Sequence record: NC_052653.1
DNA length: 64,000 nucleotides
Source of the DNA: Escherichia phage vB_vPM_PD06
Reading direction: 5' to 3' (one strand)
Shown in pieces: positions 28,568 to 52,594 of the stretch (the first letter of the stretch is position 1; each line of letters opens with the position of its first letter). A program made the translations under genes and the position numbers. Below the pieces are notes generated by a model. It saw only the letters and a list, made by a program, of their open reading frames with translations. It did no database searches and had not been told where the DNA came from.

Positions 28568-28590
28568 AAGGGGCGAAAGCCCCTTTTAAT
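28568..28590 (-). terminator. hairpin GGGGC-GAAA-GCCCC between tail fibre genes
   Basis: Same hairpin as at 17405-17425, with A/T-rich flanks on both sides. Confidence 0.4.
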
Positions 28591-31004
28591 TAAGCATTAT
28601 TGACAGTAACAAAAGTAACAGGGTTCAGAGCTTTAATTTGTGTATTCTCTGCTGTAGGTGTTACAATTGGATCTGCAATATCTATTGTGTACAAACTATT
28701 TGTCACATATGTAGCACGTGCTATAGTTGTCACAAGATCGCCGCCATTTGCACCTGCACCTGGAATAACAATCTTAGTACCTGCTGCTTTAGCGTAGCCA
28801 TTACTAGCCCAGTTTAAAGCATTAGACTGTAGATAGGTTTGACCTGTAACAGTTGCTTTTATTTTCTCATTATCACTAAAGAAAGCACCACCTGCTGTAA
28901 CAACGTGTTTTTTACCGCTTGCACAATGAATAACTGTTCCAGTAGGGAAGTCACGCCCACCTGGGAATTCATCATAATCTGTAAAATATTGTTCAGAAAT
29001 AGTGGTTAAGACTGGCCCACGATGACCTGTACCATCAACAGCAGTTGGAACACCAAAGTTATTTCCAACCTGATCGCAACGATCCGTGTAGATTTTAGCA
29101 AAAGAAACTGTTGTTTCATCTCCGCTAAGTGCTGTACATCCTACCCACTTCATATAAGTGAATTGGCTGCGAGTATAGAAACCGCCACCACTTCCTTCTC
29201 CGCTCCCGTGTTGACCAATAAAGTCAATACTACGGCAACGAATATTATTAAAAGTAGAGCTAGATGGTAGCCCACGCCATTTAAAATCATTACAATTGAT
29301 GTTACTAACAATTGTAGAGTTTTCCCAGGCGTCTGATCCAGCCGTTGCAATCTCAATCGAAGATTCTGGAATATCCAAATTCTTAATTGTAAAGTTAATT
29401 GGTGGCCCCGCATATCTTCCACCGTTAACACCCCAGTCAATAAAGACCATGCGTGTTGAAACAGACGGATCATTAAGCAGATAACCAGTTAAACCATCAA
29501 CTTCAAAGTCTTGGCATCCGTATAATGCAACACCACAAGTAGTTAAACCTGTACCTGTTGAAACTGCTGTGTTAGGATAAACTTCGTTATCACGTATTGT
29601 GAAGTTTTTACCCATTTCAACGTGTAGACATTGACGGCAATTGTAAACTCTATTTCCAACGATACTGAAGTTACGTACATATTGTGAATCAGGAGCATCA
29701 ACACCATATGGGCCACTACCTGCTACACCAATACCAATACCCCAGTTTGCACCTTGTCCAGAAGCATCTACGTTAGCAATGTGGTTATTCTCGATGATCA
29801 AACCTTCAGTGTAGTGTCTTTGAACTACGTTAAGTTCAATAGCATCACCTTTAATATCGTGAATATAGTTGTTAGAGTAACGCCCATAGGTCATTACTTC
29901 TCCAGTACCTTGTTGCAGGATCGCATATTTACAACCATACATTTCGTTGTAACTGAAGTCCAACGTACCTTCACTTGTCATTGCTTGCATTAAAAATGCT
30001 GCTGTAGATGTTGCGTTGGAGAAGATATTACGATAGAATCGGCAATCACCACCTAACATCTTAACATAACATTTTTCAAAGCGAACGTTTTCAATCCAAC
30101 AGGACACAGTAGAAATCATTGTTCCACCGTTACCAGTGAATGTACCACCATACCAACGAATACCAGACATAGCAATTGAGCTTGTGAATCTATAATTCTT
30201 ATCTGCACGTACTTGAATGTTATTCGTGTTAGCGAAAGTAATGGTTTTTAGAATTGCTTGAGTATCATCGGTAACTCCATCACCAATTGCACCAAACTGC
30301 TCAGGCGTTACAAAGTATTGAGCTTGTAACAGGTTGCCTCCAGATGGAAGACCAACCATTGCTGCACCAGTGGTAGATGACAAAAGGTTTTTCTCTACGT
30401 AAGAAGTAGAGGCTGTTGTTTTACCAATAAAAGCAAACAATTTGTTAGGTAGACCAGTAGACGGATCTAAACCTAATGGTTCTGCCAGAATAATTTTACT
30501 ATCTTTGATAGTAAATGCTTCACCTTGAATCTGAATTACACCGTTAATGGTGACAATAGCATTATCAAAGATATAAGGAGGACTGATTTCTGTTTCATAT
30601 CCTGTAGCACCTTTAAAATACCAAGGATACACATCTGAAGCTAACTGTTCAGTTTTAAGAGCGTACAGAGTCCAGTTACTGTCCCCTACAGGTGTGCCCC
30701 GCATAGGTACAGGGTTCGCAGTAGTGGCAGATGGGGCATAATAGTACCCACTCAAGATACCGTTTTCAAAATAACGTAACTGGTTAAATACAGTTTCAGT
30801 TGATCCTGCTGACCAAGCAACAGGACTCTTAAAGAAGAAGTTATCAACAAGTGCTTTACGCAGTGTAGGTATTAAACCTGTTTCGGTTTCTACAGTTGCT
30901 GTAGCATCCCCATTAATAACATCATGCATCTGGTTAGACGAGAATATAACCAGATCAACACCTTGTTCTAGTGTCGTAGCAGGATATGTTGGAAAATTCG
31001 CCAT
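28590..31004 (-). CDS. tailspike protein with parallel beta-helix (pectate-lyase-like) fold; depolymerase candidate
   Basis: 804 aa with periodic short Gly/Asn/Val/Ile-rich repeats typical of right-handed beta-helices (NNYIHDIKGDAIELNV, IIENNHIANVDASG, FSIVGNRVYNC, FTIRDNEVYPN). Confidence 0.55.
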   Translation of the reverse strand: MANFPTYPATTLEQGVDLVIFSSNQMHDVINGDATATVETETGLIPTLRKALVDNFFFKSPVAWSAGSTETVFNQLRYFENGILSGYYYAPSATTANPVPMRGTPVGDSNWTLYALKTEQLASDVYPWYFKGATGYETEISPPYIFDNAIVTINGVIQIQGEAFTIKDSKIILAEPLGLDPSTGLPNKLFAFIGKTTASTSYVEKNLLSSTTGAAMVGLPSGGNLLQAQYFVTPEQFGAIGDGVTDDTQAILKTITFANTNNIQVRADKNYRFTSSIAMSGIRWYGGTFTGNGGTMISTVSCWIENVRFEKCYVKMLGGDCRFYRNIFSNATSTAAFLMQAMTSEGTLDFSYNEMYGCKYAILQQGTGEVMTYGRYSNNYIHDIKGDAIELNVVQRHYTEGLIIENNHIANVDASGQGANWGIGIGVAGSGPYGVDAPDSQYVRNFSIVGNRVYNCRQCLHVEMGKNFTIRDNEVYPNTAVSTGTGLTTCGVALYGCQDFEVDGLTGYLLNDPSVSTRMVFIDWGVNGGRYAGPPINFTIKNLDIPESSIEIATAGSDAWENSTIVSNINCNDFKWRGLPSSSTFNNIRCRSIDFIGQHGSGEGSGGGFYTRSQFTYMKWVGCTALSGDETTVSFAKIYTDRCDQVGNNFGVPTAVDGTGHRGPVLTTISEQYFTDYDEFPGGRDFPTGTVIHCASGKKHVVTAGGAFFSDNEKIKATVTGQTYLQSNALNWASNGYAKAAGTKIVIPGAGANGGDLVTTIARATYVTNSLYTIDIADPIVTPTAENTQIKALNPVTFVTVNNA

Positions 31005-46301: not shown

Positions 46302-47012
46302 TTATTTTTTACCATCTGCACTGTGATCACTAAGATGTTCTGTACCAGTTGCTTTCCCTGTTCTTGCATCCAAATCAGCATCTGGACTAGTACCTTTCTT
46401 GTTTTTAACACCTGTATTCTTATTTGGTTTTGTCTTAAGTGCAATAGCATTTGTTTCCCCGTAGGAAACTAATCTTACTTGTTCAAATTCCAAGTCAAAT
46501 TGCATTGCATATTCTGTTTGATATTCATATGATATGCCTTTCAAAATAACATTCTCATACACCTTATGTTCTGTTATTAAAATGATAGGCTGTCTTTCAT
46601 CAAATATTTTATCTAAGTAAGTAATTGCTTGACTGATACGAGTACCGTTAACACCAGCACTATATAGCATATCTCGCATCAATCTCACAGGTGTCTCTGT
46701 AATCATTCCTGATAAAGAGAAAGTATTATTTTTAACTTGAACGTGATCAGATACGTTAGCTCCATTTTCTACAGGATAACTAGTTACATCTGCTTGACGT
46801 TTTACACCGATATTTGGAACAGCATCAAAAACTATAGCTTGGTAGTTTTGAATATATTGATCACTTGCACTATTGTAAACGCTTGCTAAAATACAAAAAC
46901 CATTCTCCCCTTTCACAGTAGAGGCAGAGTTATTTGTGTTTTTTGTAGAGTTTATATCTTGTTCCGCTTTATAAACCGCTTGAACGTGTTGTTCTGGAGT
47001 GTTTGCTGCCAT
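46302..47012 (-). CDS. hypothetical structural protein
   Basis: ORF track; first gene after the tape-measure terminator/promoter. Confidence 0.4.
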   Translation of the reverse strand: MAANTPEQHVQAVYKAEQDINSTKNTNNSASTVKGENGFCILASVYNSASDQYIQNYQAIVFDAVPNIGVKRQADVTSYPVENGANVSDHVQVKNNTFSLSGMITETPVRLMRDMLYSAGVNGTRISQAITYLDKIFDERQPIILITEHKVYENVILKGISYEYQTEYAMQFDLEFEQVRLVSYGETNAIALKTKPNKNTGVKNKKGTSPDADLDARTGKATGTEHLSDHSADGKK

Positions 47013-47059
47013 ATAATTTTACCTCTTAATGTGATAAGAAACATTCTCCCTTATCACTC

Positions 47060-47089
47060 ATTTTATCACGAAAAACAACTCTTTGTCAA
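47060..47089 (-). promoter_or_regulatory. sigma70-like promoter on minus strand (TTGACA, 18 nt, TAAAAT)
   Basis: Minus-strand reading: TTGACA (plus 47084-47089) and TAAAAT (plus 47060-47065), upstream of the 46302..47012 gene. Confidence 0.4.
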
Positions 47090-47100
47090 GACAAATAAAA

Positions 47101-47120
47101 AGCCCCGCCGAAGCGAGGCT
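47101..47120 (-). terminator. rho-independent terminator after tape-measure gene
   Basis: Minus-strand hairpin AGCCTCGC-TTCG-GCGGGGCT followed by TTTTATTTG. Confidence 0.5.
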
Positions 47121-47127
47121 TTATGCA

Positions 47128-49107
47128 TTAACCACCAGTAGAAGATTGTCCACTGCTTAACTGAAGAGTTAAACCTTGTGAGAAGTTACTAAAACTGGTA
47201 TTCATTGTCGCATCTAGATAATTACTAAAACCATAGCCATCTGGAATAACATTAATCTGGAATGCGTTGTCTGGGATAACAACCGTATTCTCTACACTTA
47301 ATGGTACTGGAACACCTTGGCGTGGTGTTAGCATAGATGCTGTTAAATCAGGTCTATTGTAACCGATACTAGAAGCACTTGGGTTTAAGGCACTAGTTAA
47401 GAAACTACTATCAAAGTCACCTAAAGGTTGATTTTCAGGTTTATGTTGATCTCTTCCAATAGGCCAATAAGCCCAAGGATTACCACCAACCTGTGCATCG
47501 TACCCATACTGCGTACCATTATAATAATCTCTTACAGCTTCTTTAGAATTGTTTTTTGGCCCAACCTTATTTGAAAAATCAAGGAAATATTTCGCAATTT
47601 TTGCAAGGCTACTTACAATACTACCAGACATTTCACCAAGACCACGAGCAGCTTCTTGGAAAGTTTTCATATTCTCTGCAAAATCTGGTGCAGATTTTAA
47701 ACCATCCATGAATCCTATAAGTAAGTTATTGGTAAAACCTTCTCCTGCTGCACTAATTTGTGCTCTTAGCTTAACAAAATCTTGTGCTGCTTTGATGTTT
47801 TCATCGTTAAGAGTTGCTCCTGAATTTTTTAACATATCCAAGACTTTCATGTACTCTTTACCGTTATCCAAAAACATACGTTGGTAGTGCATTAAGTCAT
47901 CACCAAGGTTTTCCATCAAACGACCAATTTGCGCGGAGTTCATTCCTCTTTTTTGACCTTCATTAACAAGTGCTTGAACAAAGTCTAAAGGTCTGTTCTG
48001 GAATTTAGCAACGTCTTCTTTCGACCAACCAAATTGGTTCATGATTTCATTAATACCACTATCTCCACCTTTCCATTTACCTGATTTTTCATCAAATTCG
48101 GAGTGGAGTACAGTATTACCTAAACGTTCACGAACGTCTTTAATATTGTCAATGGCTTTAATAATGCTGGCAGAGTCTACACCGTTCATCTCACCCCAAG
48201 TACGCATTGTTAAAATTGCATTAGGGTTTACCTGTACGTTCTGACCACCTTTACTAACCATATTAATACGTTCTGCCGCAGTTGTGATACTTTCAGCTAT
48301 TTTGCTTATACCTTGATATAAACCAGCACCTAAAAGAGCAGCACCAAACATAGCAGGGTTAAGAGCAATAGCAGCATTACCTACACCAGATAGCTTACGT
48401 TGTCTGTCGCGTTGTCTTGCTTCTTTTTCTCTTCTTTGCTGACGTTCGAAATCCTTTCTTTCTCTTTCTCGGATACGCTGTCTTCTTTTATCTTCTGCTT
48501 CTTGCAGACGGGCAATTCTACGTCTAGCTCTCTCTTCATCAAGAAGTTGTGCATTCTTCTCTTTATGAGATCTGCGTAGTTCTTCTAACTGTCTAGCCAA
48601 AGTATTATTCATTTGTTGGCTAGTGATCACACCTTTACGATAAAGTTCAACAGTTTCTTCTACAATCTTTTTAGATTTTTCTAGAATTCTGCTGTCTGCT
48701 TTTGTAAAAGGCATAGCTTTAAAACTAAAATCGTCTTGCTTCATATTAGCAAGTGCTGCACGTTTAGCGGCGGCTTCTGCGGCTCTTTCTTCTGGTGTTT
48801 TACGTCCTCCAGAAGATCCAGAACCACCTCTACCACTTCCTCCTTTTCCACCACCACTTGAACCTCCGGTTGGTGGGATTGGTGGAGGATTACCGCCGCC
48901 AAGACCTGACATTTGCTGCCTTATTCTTTTAGCATACTCTTCCATACTTTTAAACTGACGACGCATTTTAGTCATATTTAAAGATGGTTCAATAGATTCT
49001 GTAAAAGTTTTAAGGTTTTTAATTGCGTCTTTAGTATTTTTTAAACTGTCTTTATCTACAGTAAACGTTACTGTATTCTTAATCTTGGAAGTGTTAATTT
49101 CTAACAA
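47128..49107 (-). CDS. tail tape measure protein
   Basis: 659 aa; long charged coiled-coil region (EERARRRIARLQEAEDKRRQRIRERERKDFERQQRREKEARQRDRQRK), Gly-rich stretch (GGGNPPPIPPTGGSSGGGKGGSGRGGSG); sits after the tail chaperone pair. Confidence 0.65.
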   Translation of the reverse strand: MLEINTSKIKNTVTFTVDKDSLKNTKDAIKNLKTFTESIEPSLNMTKMRRQFKSMEEYAKRIRQQMSGLGGGNPPPIPPTGGSSGGGKGGSGRGGSGSSGGRKTPEERAAEAAAKRAALANMKQDDFSFKAMPFTKADSRILEKSKKIVEETVELYRKGVITSQQMNNTLARQLEELRRSHKEKNAQLLDEERARRRIARLQEAEDKRRQRIRERERKDFERQQRREKEARQRDRQRKLSGVGNAAIALNPAMFGAALLGAGLYQGISKIAESITTAAERINMVSKGGQNVQVNPNAILTMRTWGEMNGVDSASIIKAIDNIKDVRERLGNTVLHSEFDEKSGKWKGGDSGINEIMNQFGWSKEDVAKFQNRPLDFVQALVNEGQKRGMNSAQIGRLMENLGDDLMHYQRMFLDNGKEYMKVLDMLKNSGATLNDENIKAAQDFVKLRAQISAAGEGFTNNLLIGFMDGLKSAPDFAENMKTFQEAARGLGEMSGSIVSSLAKIAKYFLDFSNKVGPKNNSKEAVRDYYNGTQYGYDAQVGGNPWAYWPIGRDQHKPENQPLGDFDSSFLTSALNPSASSIGYNRPDLTASMLTPRQGVPVPLSVENTVVIPDNAFQINVIPDGYGFSNYLDATMNTSFSNFSQGLTLQLSSGQSSTGG

Positions 49108-49126
49108 GGGTAATCCTCCGTATTAC

Positions 49127-49354
49127 TTATGAATCTGGAATTAATTTTTTCATAGCCGTATCCAGTTCTCTTATTGTTCTCTGTTGACCACGTTTAATAT
49201 CCGCATCTTTAACGTGAAGATCTTGTACATAGTCTTCAAATGTTAAATATTCATAAATTTTAAGTAGATAATCTACACCATAATTATCTAACGAGGACAA
49301 GGTTTCGGAGGTATTCTTAATTACCTTACAAAGAATTACTTCATACCATGTCAA
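49127..49354 (-). CDS. tail assembly chaperone, -1 frame extension (T-like part)
   Basis: In the -1 frame relative to 49402..49884; this frame is open from the slippery site at 49465-49471 down to the stop at 49127. Confidence 0.55.
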   Translation of the reverse strand: MTWYEVILCKVIKNTSETLSSLDNYGVDYLLKIYEYLTFEDYVQDLHVKDADIKRGQQRTIRELDTAMKKLIPDS

Positions 49355-49401
49355 GCTAAGGGTTTGTGAGGCAATTTCAATTGCTGATTTAATTGCCGGA
49401 C

Positions 49402-49884
49402 TTAACTCTTCGCTAGAGTCTCTATTCCTTGAAATTGGGTCAACAGTTTTCCGAAACCTCGTTTGAAAAAAGGGGCATAGTTCACCTCAAGAACTTTTGC
49501 AGCTAAGTCAACAACTAATTCTGGGTGAGCAAAAAACAATTCATCAAAATTATCGGAAACACTGTGTCCTGCTTCTGTGTAAACTTCATCTAAAATTTTA
49601 CGTAAGAATGCAGCTAAGTTTTTTTCTTCCAGACCACTGAATAATTGGATCAGTGCCATAGCAATACGAGCTTCTAGATCTTCGTCTGCTGACATAAGAG
49701 CAGTATTATACATTGTCATAGGAACAGCCAGTACACTACCTAGTTCTGGAATCCTTTCAAAAACTTTAGTCGGACTCCACTTGAGAACTCTAAATTTTAC
49801 ACTGCGTCCTTCATCCAGATCAATTTCAACCATTACTTCTGGACGAGCAAATTTTGCAATAGTATTATCTTTTTGTTGTTCCAT
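49402..49884 (-). CDS. tail assembly chaperone (G-like)
   Basis: 160-aa ORF between the tail tube and tape measure genes; contains U_UUU_UUC heptamer about 20 codons before its stop. Confidence 0.55.
   Translation of the reverse strand: MEQQKDNTIAKFARPEVMVEIDLDEGRSVKFRVLKWSPTKVFERIPELGSVLAVPMTMYNTALMSADEDLEARIAMALIQLFSGLEEKNLAAFLRKILDEVYTEAGHSVSDNFDELFFAHPELVVDLAAKVLEVNYAPFFKRGFGKLLTQFQGIETLAKS
49465..49471 (-). other. candidate -1 programmed ribosomal frameshift site (T_TTT_TTC)
   Basis: Minus-strand CCT TTT TTC in frame 0 (plus-strand GAAAAAA at 49465-49471); slipping -1 reads PFFQTRFRK... with no stop until 49127. Confidence 0.55.
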
Positions 49885-49902
49885 TATTTCCTCTCTTTAA
49901 AA

Positions 49903-49930
49903 ATAAAGGGCATTTCTGCCCTTTTTATTA
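49903..49930 (-). terminator. hairpin with flanking A/T runs between tail tube and chaperone genes
   Basis: AAAGGGCA-TTTC-TGCCCTTT with T-run on the minus strand; possible attenuator. Confidence 0.4.
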
Positions 49931-50407
49931 CTGAATAGTTAGAGCACTAATAGAGTTAAGTGCGTTAACACCAACACCTACAGTAGAACGAAGTAGGCTT
50001 GCATCTTTAAGACCAATTACCCATTGGTTTTCTTGAATAGTTTCACCAATAGTATCGTCCGGTTGGCTTTGAATCCAACCAATTGTGCTGATATAATATC
50101 CGCGAGGGTCTTCCAGATATACGCTAAATGCTACTTGACGAGTAGAATACATCGTTTGTGCATAAGCAGCAAGGACTTCGTTTGCTGGAGAAGTACGTTG
50201 CAGTGACATTGTTAGCGTACCTAAACGGTTACGACTAAGCGCCAGGGAAACGTCACCATCAGTACCTGAATATGGGTTGATGATATCGTTAGTTTTGTTA
50301 ATAACAATTTTGGTATCTGCGGCGAAACCCCAAGGTTCCCAACCACCCAAAGACAGGATTACTTGAGAAGGATCATAGGCCATTACGCCAGTAAGCATTT
50401 TATCCAA
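49928..50407 (-). CDS. putative tail tube protein
   Basis: 159 aa; lies between the putative sheath and the chaperone/tape-measure genes. Confidence 0.45.
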   Translation of the reverse strand: MDKMLTGVMAYDPSQVILSLGGWEPWGFAADTKIVINKTNDIINPYSGTDGDVSLALSRNRLGTLTMSLQRTSPANEVLAAYAQTMYSTRQVAFSVYLEDPRGYYISTIGWIQSQPDDTIGETIQENQWVIGLKDASLLRSTVGVGVNALNSISALTIQ

Positions 50408-50465
50408 AGTGGATCTCCTTTTATACTACTTTTCATATAAGCGGGGTTTCCCCCGCTGCTTTTAA

Positions 50466-51872
50466 TTATGAAGATACAGTAGAGCTATTGGAATTCTGGC
50501 TATTTGCAGTGCGGTTCGTCAGAACGTTTACCTGCACTTTAACATAGTGGAAGAATCCAGCATATACGTATTCAATAACCATACCATCAACCAAACGTGC
50601 ATTGATTTGAGCATCAGTCATATCTGCACGAGATGGGATATAGATAGTAGGTTTAAGGCTTACCAGAAGTCCTGTTTCCTCTGAAGTTACTACCTCATTG
50701 GCAATAGAACCATTGTTAATACCTACTTGGATTGGGTTTGCAGTAACAGCCTGACGAATCAAAGCAAGACCAGCAGAAGTTGCTCTAACACCACTACCAA
50801 GCATAGATTGCTGTTTAAATAGAGCGAACAGAGATTCTTCTACGCGAGCTTTGAACCACAGAGCGTGTACCACATAGTCAACATAGAAACCACTAACCAT
50901 GAAACCATCACGGTAGAACAGAACACCGTGTTCTTTACGGTAAATATTACCATTCTGTTGAACGATAAAGTTTTCTGCTGTCTGACCAAGTTTTTCAATC
51001 TCGATACCAACAAGGGTTTTACCATGCAGGGTAGTAGTACCTGGTGTTGCAGAGCAGATAGAACCAACTACAGCAGCTTCTGGGAACACTGTATCAGCGT
51101 TAGTCATCCACAATGCCATACAAGTGTTATTGTAGCCCATATCACCTAAGCGTTCTAGAATGTTATCTTCTTGTTTAGTTAGAACACCTGGTTGCGAGGT
51201 AGAGAAGAAATACACTTTATCGTGCTCTTCTACATAACCTGCTAGATCGATAATATCTTGTTCTGCGTGAGAATCAGATAGTAACCAGAACCAACTGTTT
51301 TCATAATCTGCAATTTTAGCAATATCTTCTAAGATATCATTTGCATATTCTACTTTAGTTGTGAATCCTGAACTATCCATAGTAGCGTATTTACCTGCAA
51401 CTGGGGTTACAGTGATAACACTACCATCGTTTGACACAGTGAAGAATTCTTTATACACCATGTCTGCGTTGATCATTTCTGTTAAACCAACAACAATCTC
51501 TTGAGCAGTTGCAGTATCATCGGCAACAAACTTGAAGTCCTTGCTTTTTGAATTTGCTTTAATAGTGATAACGTAAGTTGCACTATCTTCAACTACTGGA
51601 GTTAGAGTTGTTTTAGAAACATCACGCTTACCGACGATAACTTGTTCTGGTGCGAACAGACCGTCAAATAGTAGTTTTGCCATTTTATAAGCTGGATCGG
51701 CAGTGCCAAAACCTGCTTGCAGAAGTGCGTCTGAAGAAGTGAAATAATCTACAAGATTGCCAGTAACGTTATGCCCTGTAAGAATTAGAGGGATATCAAA
51801 CTGTGTTTCACTAATTGAAGTAGCACCGTAGGTAAGGGTTACGGAAACTACCTTATCACGAAAAGTTGCCAT
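50466..51872 (-). CDS. putative contractile tail sheath protein
   Basis: 468 aa; directly upstream of the tube-chaperone-tape measure block. Call is by gene order, not a motif. Confidence 0.5.
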   Translation of the reverse strand: MATFRDKVVSVTLTYGATSISETQFDIPLILTGHNVTGNLVDYFTSSDALLQAGFGTADPAYKMAKLLFDGLFAPEQVIVGKRDVSKTTLTPVVEDSATYVITIKANSKSKDFKFVADDTATAQEIVVGLTEMINADMVYKEFFTVSNDGSVITVTPVAGKYATMDSSGFTTKVEYANDILEDIAKIADYENSWFWLLSDSHAEQDIIDLAGYVEEHDKVYFFSTSQPGVLTKQEDNILERLGDMGYNNTCMALWMTNADTVFPEAAVVGSICSATPGTTTLHGKTLVGIEIEKLGQTAENFIVQQNGNIYRKEHGVLFYRDGFMVSGFYVDYVVHALWFKARVEESLFALFKQQSMLGSGVRATSAGLALIRQAVTANPIQVGINNGSIANEVVTSEETGLLVSLKPTIYIPSRADMTDAQINARLVDGMVIEYVYAGFFHYVKVQVNVLTNRTANSQNSNSSTVSS

Positions 51873-51892
51873 TTATGCTCCTGTTAGAAACT

Positions 51893-52594
51893 TTATTCCA
51901 ATGAATTATCCGTTGGGATATACTTAATTAATGATCCATCATCAGTCGTCGTAAAGTAATAAGTTTTACTTCTGTGAGCAACAATGTAAATCTTATCCAA
52001 AGGAAGATCTATTGGAGTAGGATCATCGTAATCATCTCTGAACGAATGAATGTTCATATTAATTGCTTCAATTTCGGTAGTTACTAAATCCTCAATAACC
52101 ATCGTAGTATTGAATGTAAGAAATATTCTCGCTCTTTGTTCAGTTTTATCTCCATCCAGAACAGTGTTAGCCTGTGCAACATTTGTTGCAGACAAGAAGC
52201 TAATACCTTTGGAATAAAGATACTGGTATTTTAATTCATCTGCACCACGAAGTGCCGCAAGAACATAACTTAAAAGTGTCATTGGTCTTCCTCTAAAAGC
52301 CATAAGTTCTATTTCATACTTATTGTCCATTAGATATGAAAACGCATCTTCACTAAAAGAATATTTTTGTGACCAACCACCTGAATCATCAGATGATACA
52401 ATACGTAATGTCAGATATGGGGTTGTTGGTTTAACAAATGGTTTATCCATAACATAAACCGGAAGCCCCACGAGTCTTTGTAAGAACTTAGCGATATTTA
52501 ATAATATCGTATTTTCATACAATTCAATTTGTTCGTAGATATTAGCCAAAATTACCACCCTCCTCAGAATAAGAATAGGTGTTATTCTGGTCAT
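51893..52594 (-). CDS. hypothetical head-tail joining/tail completion protein
   Basis: ORF track; overlaps the upstream gene by 53 nt, so the true start may be downstream. Confidence 0.35.
   Translation of the reverse strand: MTRITPILILRRVVILANIYEQIELYENTILLNIAKFLQRLVGLPVYVMDKPFVKPTTPYLTLRIVSSDDSGGWSQKYSFSEDAFSYLMDNKYEIELMAFRGRPMTLLSYVLAALRGADELKYQYLYSKGISFLSATNVAQANTVLDGDKTEQRARIFLTFNTTMVIEDLVTTEIEAINMNIHSFRDDYDDPTPIDLPLDKIYIVAHRSKTYYFTTTDDGSLIKYIPTDNSLE

What the first reader, a model, noticed from the sequence alone, without database searches (positions are those of the whole stretch)
49127..49884. Candidate -1 programmed frameshift joining the two tail assembly chaperone ORFs
The 160-codon ORF between the tube and tape-measure genes contains the heptamer T_TTT_TTC (minus strand) about 20 codons before its stop. 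The -1 frame is open from that point through the start of the 49127..49354 ORF, which would give a fusion of roughly 250 aa. This is the conserved G/GT-type chaperone arrangement of long-tailed phages, and it supports the tail gene order inferred here.
Basis: seen in the sequence. Interest (0 to 1): 0.6.

Follow-up and report, generated by a model that had tools for sequence, protein, structure and literature searches.

The report
Unannotated tail-chaperone -1 frameshift, phi92-like phage
The window is a phi92-like E. coli phage, and its tail assembly chaperone gene carries a perfectly conserved slippery site that should let a few ribosomes slip back one base and make a longer second protein; this trick is well known in long-tailed phages and has simply been missed in the database records for this phage group.

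Summary
On the minus strand, the 160-codon ORF 49884..49402 is a tail assembly chaperone (Pfam PF21822; phi92 gp132 homologue). It contains the in-frame heptamer T_TTT_TTC (49471..49465), overlapped by a second heptamer, C_CCT_TTT (49474..49468), 20 codons before its stop. The -1 frame is open from 49486 to the stop at 49127. A -1 shift gives a 252-aa fusion (140 + 112 aa), and either heptamer gives the same product.

Comparative evidence is strong. T_TTT_TTC is invariant in all 57 related loci examined, from two subfamilies (Stephanstirmvirinae, Vequintavirinae) down to about 25% protein identity. Its three wobble bases never vary, although synonymous sites elsewhere are near saturation. The -1 ORF always runs 82-92 codons past the stop.

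The downstream "gene" has no Shine-Dalgarno sequence and no conserved start. Its conserved domain begins upstream of the annotated TTG start. No downstream RNA structure was found.

None of the 19 GenBank/RefSeq records inspected annotates the shift, and I found no paper describing it for this clade. The same device is proven in lambda and P2 and was proposed in 2025 for related phage families.

Verdict: a real but ordinary G/GT-type -1 programmed frameshift, and a new member of a known kind. It has not been tested experimentally.

The parts
49402..49884 (-). TAC-N gene (phi92 gp132 homologue). This is the 0-frame tail assembly chaperone, 160 aa, and the predicted major product.
   Evidence: ORF list and translation. 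Pfam PF21822 Phage_TAC_15, E = 1.6e-22, 80.8 bits against a cutoff of 22. phrog_3840 tail assembly chaperone, E = 4.4e-54. 99-100% identical to the gp132 locus of phi92-like phages.
49465..49471 (-). Slippery heptamer T_TTT_TTC, the proposed site of the -1 shift. tRNA-Phe in both the P and A sites re-pairs with UUU/UUU.
   Evidence: Sequence and phasing. Invariant in 15 of 15 divergent GenBank phages and 42 of 42 IMG/VR loci. Its three wobble positions are 15:0, whereas the other invariant Phe codons split 9:6 and 6:9.
49468..49474 (-). A second, overlapping in-phase heptamer, C_CCT_TTT. It is present only in Stephanstirmvirinae and gives the same fusion product.
   Evidence: Present in all Stephanstirmvirinae-type loci. 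Replaced by G_CTG_TTT or similar in Vequintavirinae.
49127..49465 (-). The -1 frame extension: 112 codons plus a TAA stop. It forms the C-terminal ('T-like') part of the 252-aa TAC-NC fusion.
   Evidence: Translation. Aligns end to end with the -1 extensions of 14 other phages, including the stretch upstream of the annotated start. The AlphaFold2 model is helical, mean pLDDT 67.7.
49402..49465 (-). Dual-coded overlap, where both the 0 frame (KRGFGKLL...) and the -1 frame (QTRFRKTV...) are read.
   Evidence: G143, F144 and L147 are conserved in the 0 frame. R-F-R is conserved in the -1 frame, with a synonymous AGG/CGG change that alters the 0-frame residue. The invariant third positions cluster here.
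49127..49354 (-). The database-annotated 'hypothetical protein' ORF (phi92 gp133 homologue, 75 aa, TTG start). I interpret it as a fragment of the frameshift extension, not an independent gene.
   Evidence: No Shine-Dalgarno sequence before any candidate start in any of 15 genomes, and the first possible start falls at extension codons 29 to 84. Gene callers chose six different starts. The conserved motif LSPAIKSAIEIASQTLS lies upstream of the TTG.
49483..49488 (-). Shine-Dalgarno-like GAGGTG inside the TAC ORF. It lies 13 nt upstream of T_TTT_TTC and 10 nt upstream of C_CCT_TTT, and is a possible 5' stimulator of the dnaX type.
   Evidence: A GGAG/GAGG core at this position occurs in 22 of 29 unique contexts and is absent in 7. 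The spacing is inside the 6-17 nt range used for such stimulators (PMC4066793). Its function is inferred, not shown.
49905..49924 (-). Terminator-like hairpin plus T-run between the tube gene and the TAC gene. It probably lowers TAC and TMP expression relative to sheath and tube.
   Evidence: Pattern scan. Annotated as a terminator at the same place in phage PATM and phAPEC8 records.
47128..49107 (-). Tape measure protein gene (phi92 gp134 homologue; TTG start with a GGAGG Shine-Dalgarno sequence at 49119..49115). This is the expected client of the chaperone.
   Evidence: phrog_16051 tape measure protein, 1329 bits. gp134 was identified as the TMP in the phi92 cryo-EM structure (PMC13450770).
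49928..50407 (-). Tail tube gene (phi92 gp131 homologue), the expected binding partner of the C-terminal extension.
   Evidence: phrog_280 and PF11681. gp131 is the tube protein in the phi92 cryo-EM structure.

Best explanation
The window is a phi92-like (Justusliebigvirus) E. coli myophage. Its tail assembly chaperone gene is decoded in two ways.

Most ribosomes read the 0 frame to the TAA stop at 49404..49402 and make the 160-aa TAC-N. A minority slip back one nucleotide, with tRNA-Phe on UUU in the P site and tRNA-Phe on UUC in the A site (U_UUU_UUC, 49471..49465). Slippage one codon earlier, on C_CCU_UUU, is also possible. These ribosomes continue in the -1 frame to 49127 and make a 252-aa TAC-NC fusion. 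The database 'gene' 49354..49127 is only the tail of that extension.

The function is inferred by analogy with lambda gpG/gpGT and P2 E/E+E'. The shared N-domain would coat the tape measure protein (47128..49107). The -1-encoded C-domain would recruit the tube protein (49928..50407), so that the tube polymerises around the tape measure. Both chaperone forms would then leave the finished tail.

What is shown here: the site, its phasing, the open frame, purifying selection on the nucleotides of the heptamer and on both frames in the overlap, and the lack of independent initiation signals.

What is inferred: that ribosomes, rather than RNA polymerase, make the shift; an efficiency of a few percent; and the division of labour between the two domains.
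For: 1. **Anatomy.** The heptamer is in phase. The -1 frame is open for 119 codons and the +1 frame for only 7.
2. **Gene identity and position.** PF21822 TAC and phrog_3840, located between the tube and TMP genes.
3. **Conservation of the site.** T_TTT_TTC is invariant in 15 divergent GenBank phages of Stephanstirmvirinae and Vequintavirinae, down to 23% TAC-N identity, and in 42 IMG/VR loci (31 unique). The -1 ORF extends 82-92 codons past the stop in every complete locus.
4. **Selection at synonymous sites.** Only 9 of 167 third positions are invariant across the 15 sequences. Three of these are the consecutive wobble bases of the heptamer, and five more lie in the dual-coded overlap. The other invariant Phe codons use TTT:TTC at 9:6 and 6:9. 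Third-base identity in identical-residue codons falls to 36-48% between subfamilies.
5. **The -1 product is conserved as protein upstream of any annotated start**. The R codon in R-F-R changes synonymously (AGG/CGG) while the 0-frame residue changes.
6. **No independent initiation.** No Shine-Dalgarno sequence and no conserved start codon precede the downstream ORF. In Hena1 and KB57 the first possible start is at extension codons 80-84, inside the conserved domain. Gene callers disagree on six starts.
7. **No in-frame fusions.** All 45 database homologues are 151-175 aa TAC-N-only proteins, so the split arrangement is maintained.
8. **Heptamer efficiency.** U_UU.U_UU.C and C_CC.U_UU.U belong to the H_HH.U_UU.Y class, among the most efficient -1 motifs measured in E. 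coli (PMC4066793).
9. **Precedents.** Lambda G/GT (PMC5009743). P2 E/E+E' at TTTTTTG, also without a downstream structure (PMC3091744). An in-silico proposal of the same device in Vandenendeviridae and Andersonviridae, which that paper relates to Vequintavirinae (PMC12846349).
10. **Virion composition.** gp132 and gp133 are not among the phi92 virion proteins resolved by cryo-EM, as expected for chaperones (PMC13450770).
Against: - There is no experimental evidence (protein, peptide or reporter) for any member of this clade.
- No downstream stimulatory RNA structure was found. The window folds give z = -0.74 and +0.11. There is no consensus structure in 15 sequences. The mean z is +0.30 over 34 unique sequences.
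- The upstream Shine-Dalgarno-like element is absent in 7 of 29 contexts.
- Part of the heptamer's conservation follows from the invariant Phe-Phe dipeptide. Only the wobble positions are independent evidence.
- One of the two peptide patterns used to collect the IMG/VR loci contained 'FF'. This is an amino-acid-level bias only.
- The sequences are phylogenetically related, so the counts are not independent events.
- A T6 run could in principle also support RNA polymerase slippage, which would give the identical protein.
Confidence: 0.88

Rival explanations
1. Transcriptional slippage. RNA polymerase occasionally adds one U on the T6 run (49471..49466). A subpopulation of mRNAs then carries U7 and encodes the same 252-aa fusion by standard translation.
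For: The site is a homopolymeric T run. The protein product would be identical (...APFFQTR...), so none of the comparative evidence distinguishes this from ribosomal slippage. The title of Vladimirov et al. [quoted passage not shown] I could not read that paper.
Against: Productive slippage by bacterial RNA polymerase is described for runs of about 9 A or T (PMC5009743). Here the run is exactly 6 T in all 57 loci and is never longer, although longer runs would slip better. The conserved unit is a phased X_XXY_YYZ heptamer that includes the 3' C. The run always sits in the same codon phase, which matters for ribosomes but not for RNA polymerase.
Confidence: 0.06
2. Two independent genes. The downstream ORF is translated on its own from the annotated TTG at 49354 (or by termination-reinitiation after the TAC stop). 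This would give a separate 75-aa protein, as all database records annotate it.
For: All 19 inspected GenBank/RefSeq records annotate separate CDSs, or omit the second ORF, and none has a joined CDS. PHROGs holds the short ORF as its own family, phrog_16039.
Against: No Shine-Dalgarno sequence precedes the TTG (gcctcacaaaccctt). No start codon is conserved. In several relatives the first ATG/GTG/TTG lies 40-50 codons inside the conserved region. Conserved protein sequence in the -1 frame continues upstream of the TTG all the way to the heptamer, with no stop in 57 of 57 loci. Gene callers pick six different starts. This model does not explain the invariant wobble bases of the heptamer.
Confidence: 0.04
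3. Artefact or chance. Either a sequencing indel in a homopolymer split one gene in two, or the heptamer and open frame coincide by chance.
For: Homopolymer runs are error-prone in some sequencing chemistries. A heptamer somewhere in a 27-codon overlap has about a 12% chance expectation.
Against: The same T6 run and the same two-frame arrangement are present in 57 independently sequenced loci from isolates and metagenomes. tblastn finds the match in two pieces, in different frames, across the records listed from the 368 hits. No in-frame fused homologue exists among 45 database clusters. The 0-frame tail after the heptamer is itself conserved.
Confidence: 0.01

Closest known systems
Phage P2 E / E+E' tail chaperone frameshift (Christie et al. 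2002; described in PMC3091744)
   Same: Both are in contractile-tailed phages. The gene pair lies between the tube and tape-measure genes. [quoted passage not shown] There is no downstream RNA structure. The downstream ORF has no start of its own.
   Different: No detectable sequence similarity: the N-domain here is Pfam PF21822. The products are larger (160 and 252 aa, against 91 and 142 aa). The last base of the heptamer is C rather than G. A second overlapping heptamer is present here. The P2 shift is experimentally proven, whereas this one is not.
Phage lambda gpG / gpGT (Levin 1993; Xu, Hendrix & Duda 2004, 2013, 2014; summarised in PMC5009743)
   Same: The same gene position and logic. 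A major short chaperone and a minor frameshift-extended one share an N-terminus. The predicted roles are that the N-domain binds the tape measure and the C-domain binds the tube protein. Neither form is in the virion.
   Different: Lambda is a siphovirus and uses G_GGA_AAG with tRNA-Lys/Gly slippage. There is no sequence similarity, and no lambda-type TAC Pfam family was hit. The 30:1 ratio is measured for lambda and unknown here.
TAC-N/TAC-NC locus of Vandenendeviridae (Pakpunavirus) and Andersonviridae (Felix O1-like) with the conserved GTTTTT motif (PMC12846349, Dec 2025; Moogle announcement PMC4319497)
   Same: Large virulent myophages whose virion modules that paper relates to Vequintavirinae. 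The downstream ORF is routinely mis-annotated as a hypothetical protein. The slip site is a poly-T motif near the 3' end of TAC-N, and the -1 frame is uninterrupted in all relatives. The evidence is the same kind of in-silico argument.
   Different: Different virus families: that paper did not analyse Stephanstirmvirinae or the Vequintavirinae locus. In the window the T run is preceded by CCCC, not G, although the Vequintavirinae relatives do read ctGTTTTTTC. I did not test homology between those TACs and this one.
E. coli dnaX and IS3-family -1 frameshift signals
   Same: The same class of slippery heptamer. U_UU.U_UU.C is used by some IS elements. An internal Shine-Dalgarno-like sequence lies 10-13 nt upstream in the window, as in dnaX.
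   Different: Those signals depend on a strong downstream hairpin or pseudoknot and reach high efficiency. No such structure exists here, and the Shine-Dalgarno-like element is not universal in the clade.

Membership tests
G/GT-type tail assembly chaperone pair with programmed frameshift (Xu, Hendrix & Duda 2004 criteria) | The gene pair lies between the major tail/tube gene and the tape measure gene | tested here: met
   Order on the minus strand: sheath 51872..50466, tube 50407..49928, TAC 49884..49402, extension to 49127, TMP 49107..47128. The identities of gp131 and gp134 are confirmed by the phi92 cryo-EM paper.
G/GT-type tail assembly chaperone pair with programmed frameshift (Xu, Hendrix & Duda 2004 criteria) | The downstream ORF overlaps the 3' end of the upstream ORF in the -1 frame, with a canonical in-phase slippery heptamer inside the overlap | tested here: met
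   27-codon overlap. T_TTT_TTC and C_CCT_TTT are both in phase.
G/GT-type tail assembly chaperone pair with programmed frameshift (Xu, Hendrix & Duda 2004 criteria) | The downstream ORF lacks its own ribosome-binding site and conserved start codon | tested here: met
   No Shine-Dalgarno sequence before any candidate start in 15 genomes, and start positions are not conserved. Gene callers chose six different starts.
G/GT-type tail assembly chaperone pair with programmed frameshift (Xu, Hendrix & Duda 2004 criteria) | The slip site and frame arrangement are conserved among divergent relatives | tested here: met
   57 of 57 loci across two subfamilies. The wobble bases of the heptamer are invariant while synonymous sites elsewhere vary.
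G/GT-type tail assembly chaperone pair with programmed frameshift (Xu, Hendrix & Duda 2004 criteria) | Two proteins sharing an N-terminus are made in a fixed ratio, and both are needed for tail assembly | not testable with these tools
   This needs Western blot or MS and genetics. No such data were found for phi92- or rV5-like phages.
G/GT-type tail assembly chaperone pair with programmed frameshift (Xu, Hendrix & Duda 2004 criteria) | The chaperone products are absent from the mature virion | tested here: inconclusive
   The phi92 cryo-EM paper lists the virion proteins gp120-gp147 that it modelled, and gp132 and gp133 are not among them. Absence from a density model is not proof of absence.
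Pfam PF21822 (Phage_TAC_15) | Whole-protein score above the curated gathering cutoff | tested here: met
   80.8 bits against a cutoff of 22, E = 1.6e-22, residues 29-144. All 45 homologous clusters carry PF21822.
Lambda gpG / gpT sequence families | Detectable sequence similarity to the lambda-type G or T domains | tested here: not met
   The Pfam scan at E <= 0.1 returned only PF21822 for the N part and nothing meaningful for the C part. There is no PDB relative. The C-domain model matches only orthologues in BFVD. The resemblance is one of mechanism and position, not of sequence family.
Structure-stimulated -1 PRF signals (IS3 / dnaX / viral pseudoknot type) | A stable, conserved hairpin or pseudoknot 5-9 nt downstream of the heptamer | tested here: not met
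   Window folds give z = -0.74 and +0.11. RNAalifold found 0 consensus pairs in 15 sequences. The mean z is +0.30 over 34 unique downstream regions, with only one below -2.
dnaX-type 5' stimulator | A Shine-Dalgarno-like sequence 6-17 nt upstream of the heptamer, conserved in the family | tested here: inconclusive
   GAGGTG at 49488..49483 lies 13 nt upstream. A GGAG/GAGG core is present in 22 of 29 unique contexts and absent in 7. It coincides with conserved Leu-Glu-Val/Ile codons.
Vandenendeviridae/Andersonviridae TAC-N/NC locus (PMC12846349) | An invariant GTTTTT motif at the 3' end of TAC-N | tested here: not met
   The window and all Stephanstirmvirinae read CCCCTTTTTTC, with no G. The Vequintavirinae relatives read ctGTTTTTTC and do contain the motif. 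Protein homology to those TACs was not tested.

The most novel reading that the evidence does not exclude
The shift site may be part of a larger phage-tuned recoding cassette rather than a bare heptamer. Three observations fit this idea.

- The extended motif AAC-UAY-GGN-NNU-UUU-UUC is conserved, including the invariant AAC wobble base.
- A Shine-Dalgarno-like GGAGG/GAGG sequence sits 10-13 nt upstream in most members.
- In this phage, the genes for tRNA-Phe(GAA), tRNA-Pro(UGG) and tRNA-Gln(UUG) are adjacent (63361..63598). These tRNAs decode exactly the codons CCU-UUU-UUC and the first -1 codon, CAA.

Together these could set the TAC-N:TAC-NC ratio independently of host tRNA pools, with the tandem C_CCU_UUU_UUC giving two chances to slip.
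Probability: 0.06. Interest if true: 0.5.

Novelty: new member of a known kind. Interest (0 to 1): 0.3.

Why it matters
The main value is for annotation. The phi92/phAPEC8-like (Stephanstirmvirinae) and rV5/PVP-SE1-like (Vequintavirinae) phages number about 370 genomes in the phage collection, and many are therapy or biocontrol candidates. All 19 GenBank/RefSeq records I inspected carry gp133-type 'hypothetical proteins' with arbitrary start codons, or omit the ORF altogether. The evidence here supports a joined ribosomal-slippage CDS instead.

The finding also extends the conserved tail-chaperone frameshift to two more subfamilies of large virulent myophages. It gives a clean natural example of a structure-less U_UUU_UUC site whose nucleotides have been frozen over deep divergence. 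Finally, it confirms the sheath, tube, chaperone, tape-measure gene order in this window.

It does not change how tail assembly or recoding is understood.

Tried and rejected
I folded 49380..49464 and 49340..49480, ran RNAalifold on 15 sequences, and computed z-scores for 34 unique downstream regions. Nothing exceeded the shuffled controls. A 5-bp hairpin in Vequintavirinae (CGAAA-GACGG-UUUCG) starts only 1 nt after the heptamer. That is too close to act as a stimulator, and it is explained by the dual coding of GGTTTCG.
2. **Search for relatives in which the two parts are fused in one frame ('Rosetta stone').** All 45 hits are TAC-N only.
3. **Identity of the C-terminal domain.**
   - Pfam found nothing, and PHROGs has only unknown-function families.
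   - PDB sequence search gave only chance hits.
   - The AlphaFold2 model is of moderate quality (pLDDT 67.7, helical), and Foldseek against BFVD found only orthologues.
4. **Literature on this frameshift in phi92, rV5, PVP-SE1 or phAPEC8-like phages.** None was found in the held library. The rV5 genome/proteome paper and the 2026 phi92 cryo-EM paper do not mention it. Vladimirov et al. 2022 on T4-like TACs could not be read.
5. **The upstream Shine-Dalgarno-like element as a universal stimulator.** It is present in 22 of 29 contexts only, so I kept it as a possible local contributor.
6. **The other heptamer in the window with a long -1 frame (29150..29473).** Rejected as a spurious ORF nested in an 804-aa gene.
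Full report
**What the window is.** Megablast of 47000..52000 finds 99-100% identity to Escherichia phages SD2, cardinal, PaulScherrer and phi92 (genus Justusliebigvirus, subfamily Stephanstirmvirinae). On the minus strand the gene order is:
- sheath, 51872..50466 (phrog_205);
- tube, 50407..49928 (phrog_280; phi92 gp131);
- a 160-aa ORF, 49884..49402;
- a 75-aa ORF, 49354..49127;
- tape measure protein, 49107..47128 (phrog_16051; phi92 gp134).

The 160-aa ORF is a tail assembly chaperone. Pfam PF21822 scores 80.8 bits against a cutoff of 22, and phrog_3840 matches at E = 4e-54. It corresponds to phi92 gp132, and the 75-aa ORF corresponds to gp133.

**Checking the observation.** The sequence reads ...GTG AAC TAT GCC CCT TTT TTC AAA CGA GGT TTC... 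in the frame of the ATG at 49884.
- T_TTT_TTC occupies 49471..49465, with its first T at codon position 3. Twenty sense codons follow before the TAA stop.
A -1 shift at either one gives the same protein, ...NYAPFF-QTRFRK....
- The -1 frame is open for 119 codons, from 49486 to the stop at 49129..49127. The +1 frame is open for only 7 codons.
- The fusion is 140 + 112 = 252 aa.

In the window's ORFs of 100 aa or more, in-phase X_XXY_YYZ heptamers occur at 0.48% per codon. A heptamer in the 27-codon overlap would therefore arise by chance about one time in eight. This is nonetheless the only real gene in 64 kb where such a heptamer opens a -1 frame running more than 30 codons past the stop. The single other hit is a spurious ORF inside an 804-aa gene.

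**Comparative evidence.** I fetched the locus from 15 phages spanning two subfamilies. From Stephanstirmvirinae these were phi92, phAPEC8, Klebsiella phi1_175008, 05F01 and KP13-16, and Citrobacter Tr1. From Vequintavirinae these were FV3/rV5-like, Seunavirus KE23 and GAP31, Avunavirus 18-1-2, Hena1, KB57, phiTE, SSBI34 and Acinetobacter ABPH49. TAC-N identity to the window falls to 23%.

In every one, T_TTT_TTC is present in phase. The -1 frame opens a few codons upstream of it and runs to the end of the downstream ORF, and the +1 frame does not. A scan of IMG/VR added 42 loci (31 unique). All 42 have the heptamer and a -1 ORF extending 82-92 codons past the stop wherever the locus is complete. 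One of the two peptide patterns used for that scan contained 'FF', which biases the amino acids but not the codon choice.

The nucleotide-level signal is the key point:
- Across the 15-sequence codon alignment, only 9 of 167 degenerate third positions are invariant.
- Three of the nine are the consecutive wobble bases of the heptamer: NNT (Pro, Cys or Ser), TTT and TTC.
- Five more lie in the dual-coded overlap, and one is the AAC two codons upstream.
- The other two invariant Phe columns use TTT:TTC at 9:6 and 6:9, whereas the two heptamer codons are 15:0 and 15:0.
- Third-base identity in identical-residue codons is only 36-48% between subfamilies, so synonymous sites are otherwise close to saturated.

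**Both frames are coding in the overlap.** In the 0 frame, G143, F144 and L147 are conserved. In the -1 frame, R-F-R is conserved, and the first Arg changes synonymously (AGG/CGG) while the 0-frame residue changes.

**The downstream ORF is not an independent gene.** The fused proteins align from end to end. After the shift comes a variable linker, which is Gly/Ser-rich and 15-20 residues longer in Vequintavirinae. A conserved helical domain follows, beginning with (L/V)(S/T)P...A...A...SL(T/K)W(Y/F). This lies upstream of the TTG that databases use as the start of gp133.

No candidate start codon in the -1 ORF of any of the 15 genomes has a Shine-Dalgarno sequence. The first possible start varies from extension codon 29 to 84, and in Hena1 and KB57 it falls deep inside the conserved domain. 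Protein databases hold this ORF with six different starts and lengths of 64-85 aa. By contrast, the TAC and TMP genes have clear Shine-Dalgarno sequences (GAGG at 49893..49890; GGAGG at 49119..49115). No homologue is an in-frame fusion: all 45 clusters are 151-175 aa.

**Stimulators.** There is no evidence for a downstream hairpin or pseudoknot.
A 141-nt window gives z = +0.11.
- RNAalifold finds no consensus pair in 15 sequences.
- Across 34 unique downstream regions the mean z is +0.30.

This matches P2, where no structure follows TTTTTTG (PMC3091744). Upstream, the window has GAGGTG at 49488..49483, which is 13 nt before T_TTT_TTC and 10 nt before C_CCT_TTT. That is inside the 6-17 nt range used for Shine-Dalgarno-type stimulators (PMC4066793). 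A GGAG/GAGG core occupies this place in 22 of 29 unique contexts and is missing in 7. It coincides with conserved Leu-Glu-Val codons. It may help locally, but I cannot call it part of the signal.

**Mechanism.** The best explanation is simultaneous-slippage -1 ribosomal frameshifting, with tRNA-Phe in both the P and A sites.
- Sharma et al. measured H_HH.U_UU.Y heptamers, which include both motifs here, among the most efficient in E. coli. They also found U_UU.U_UU.C in use in IS elements (PMC4066793).
- By analogy with lambda gpG/gpGT (PMC5009743), the abundant TAC-N and the N-part of the fusion would coat the tape measure protein. The -1-encoded domain would recruit the tube protein, and both forms would leave the finished tail.
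- Consistent with that, the 2026 cryo-EM study of phi92 models gp130, gp131 and gp134 in the virion but not gp132 or gp133 (PMC13450770).
- The efficiency (a few percent) and the division of labour between the domains are inferences.

**Rivals.**
- **Transcriptional slippage** on the T6 run would give the identical protein, so the comparative data cannot exclude it. However, productive bacterial slippage is described for runs of about 9 (PMC5009743). The run is exactly six T in all 57 loci and always in the same codon phase, followed by C. I give this 0.06.
- **Independent initiation of gp133** is contradicted by the absence of start signals, by the conserved coding sequence upstream, and by the frozen wobble bases (0.04).
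- **Sequencing error or chance** is excluded by 57 independent sequences (0.01).

**Comparison with what is known.** This is the conserved tail-chaperone frameshift of Xu, Hendrix and Duda (2004). The closest proven case is P2 E/E+E' (a myovirus, TTTTTTG, with no downstream structure).

A December 2025 paper argued in the same in-silico way for a -1 shift at a GTTTTT motif in Pakpunavirus-like and Felix O1-like phages, and it relates those families to Vequintavirinae (PMC12846349). An earlier genome announcement mentions the shift for the Felix O1-like phage Moogle.

I found no paper or database record that describes it for phi92-, phAPEC8-, rV5- or PVP-SE1-like phages. None of the 19 records inspected has a joined CDS.

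At the sequence level the N-domain belongs to PF21822, not to the lambda G family. The C-domain has no characterised relative.

**Verdict.** The feature is real, strongly supported by comparative analysis and experimentally untested. It is a new, unannotated member of a well-known kind. Its value is mainly in correcting annotation across about 370 genomes, and interest is modest (0.3).

Noticed in passing
window 62883..63598 (minus strand): A cluster of six tRNA genes: Ile(GAU), Met(CAU), Leu(UAG), Phe(GAA), Pro(UGG) and Gln(UUG). The adjacent Phe, Pro and Gln tRNAs happen to decode the slip-site codons CCU-UUU-UUC and the first -1 codon, CAA. This is probably coincidence. The cluster may continue beyond the window end.
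   Followed up: no
window 49905..49924 (minus strand); also 47099..47122 (minus strand): A terminator-like hairpin plus T-run lies in the 43-nt gap between the tube and chaperone genes. A stronger one (10 bp, 6 GC pairs) lies just after the tape measure gene. The first is annotated as a terminator in phage PATM and phAPEC8 records. It may be a leaky terminator that keeps chaperone and TMP levels far below those of sheath and tube.
   Followed up: partly
GenBank records MG065639/645/656/689, OK210077, OP562383, OR584014 (hits H20-H23, H28, H58, H96): Records labelled Campylobacter, Serratia, Acinetobacter and Pseudomonas phages match E. coli phi92/phAPEC8-like phages at this locus. The Campylobacter and Serratia records are 99-100% identical in DNA. 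The Acinetobacter record is 74.8% identical in DNA. The Pseudomonas record matches at the protein level only (72.9%). The host labels look doubtful: contaminating coliphages, or propagation-host confusion.
   Followed up: no
L011-L019 (Vequintavirinae loci), -1 extension codons ~10-35: The frameshift extensions of Vequintavirinae carry a Gly/Ser/Thr-rich low-complexity linker of about 15-20 aa between the shift site and the conserved C-domain. Stephanstirmvirinae, including the window, lack it.
   Followed up: partly
window 49127..49354 and homologues P0046-P0062: Protein databases hold the gp133-type ORF with at least six different start positions and lengths of 64-85 aa. Several GenBank records omit it entirely (SKA64, phi1_175008, Hena1, SSBI34). 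This is a symptom of the missing frameshift annotation.
   Followed up: yes
window 48790..48900 (minus strand), N-terminal part of the tape measure protein: The TMP has a Gly/Ser/Pro-rich low-complexity stretch (GGGNPPPIPPTGGSSGGGKGGSGRGGSGSSGG) near residue 70, followed by a highly charged Arg/Glu-rich coiled-coil region. The gene starts with TTG.
   Followed up: no
window 29150..29473 (minus strand): A 107-aa ORF with an in-phase TTTAAAT heptamer and a 229-codon -1 frame looks like a second frameshift candidate. It is a spurious ORF nested inside the 804-aa gene 28590..31004.
   Followed up: yes
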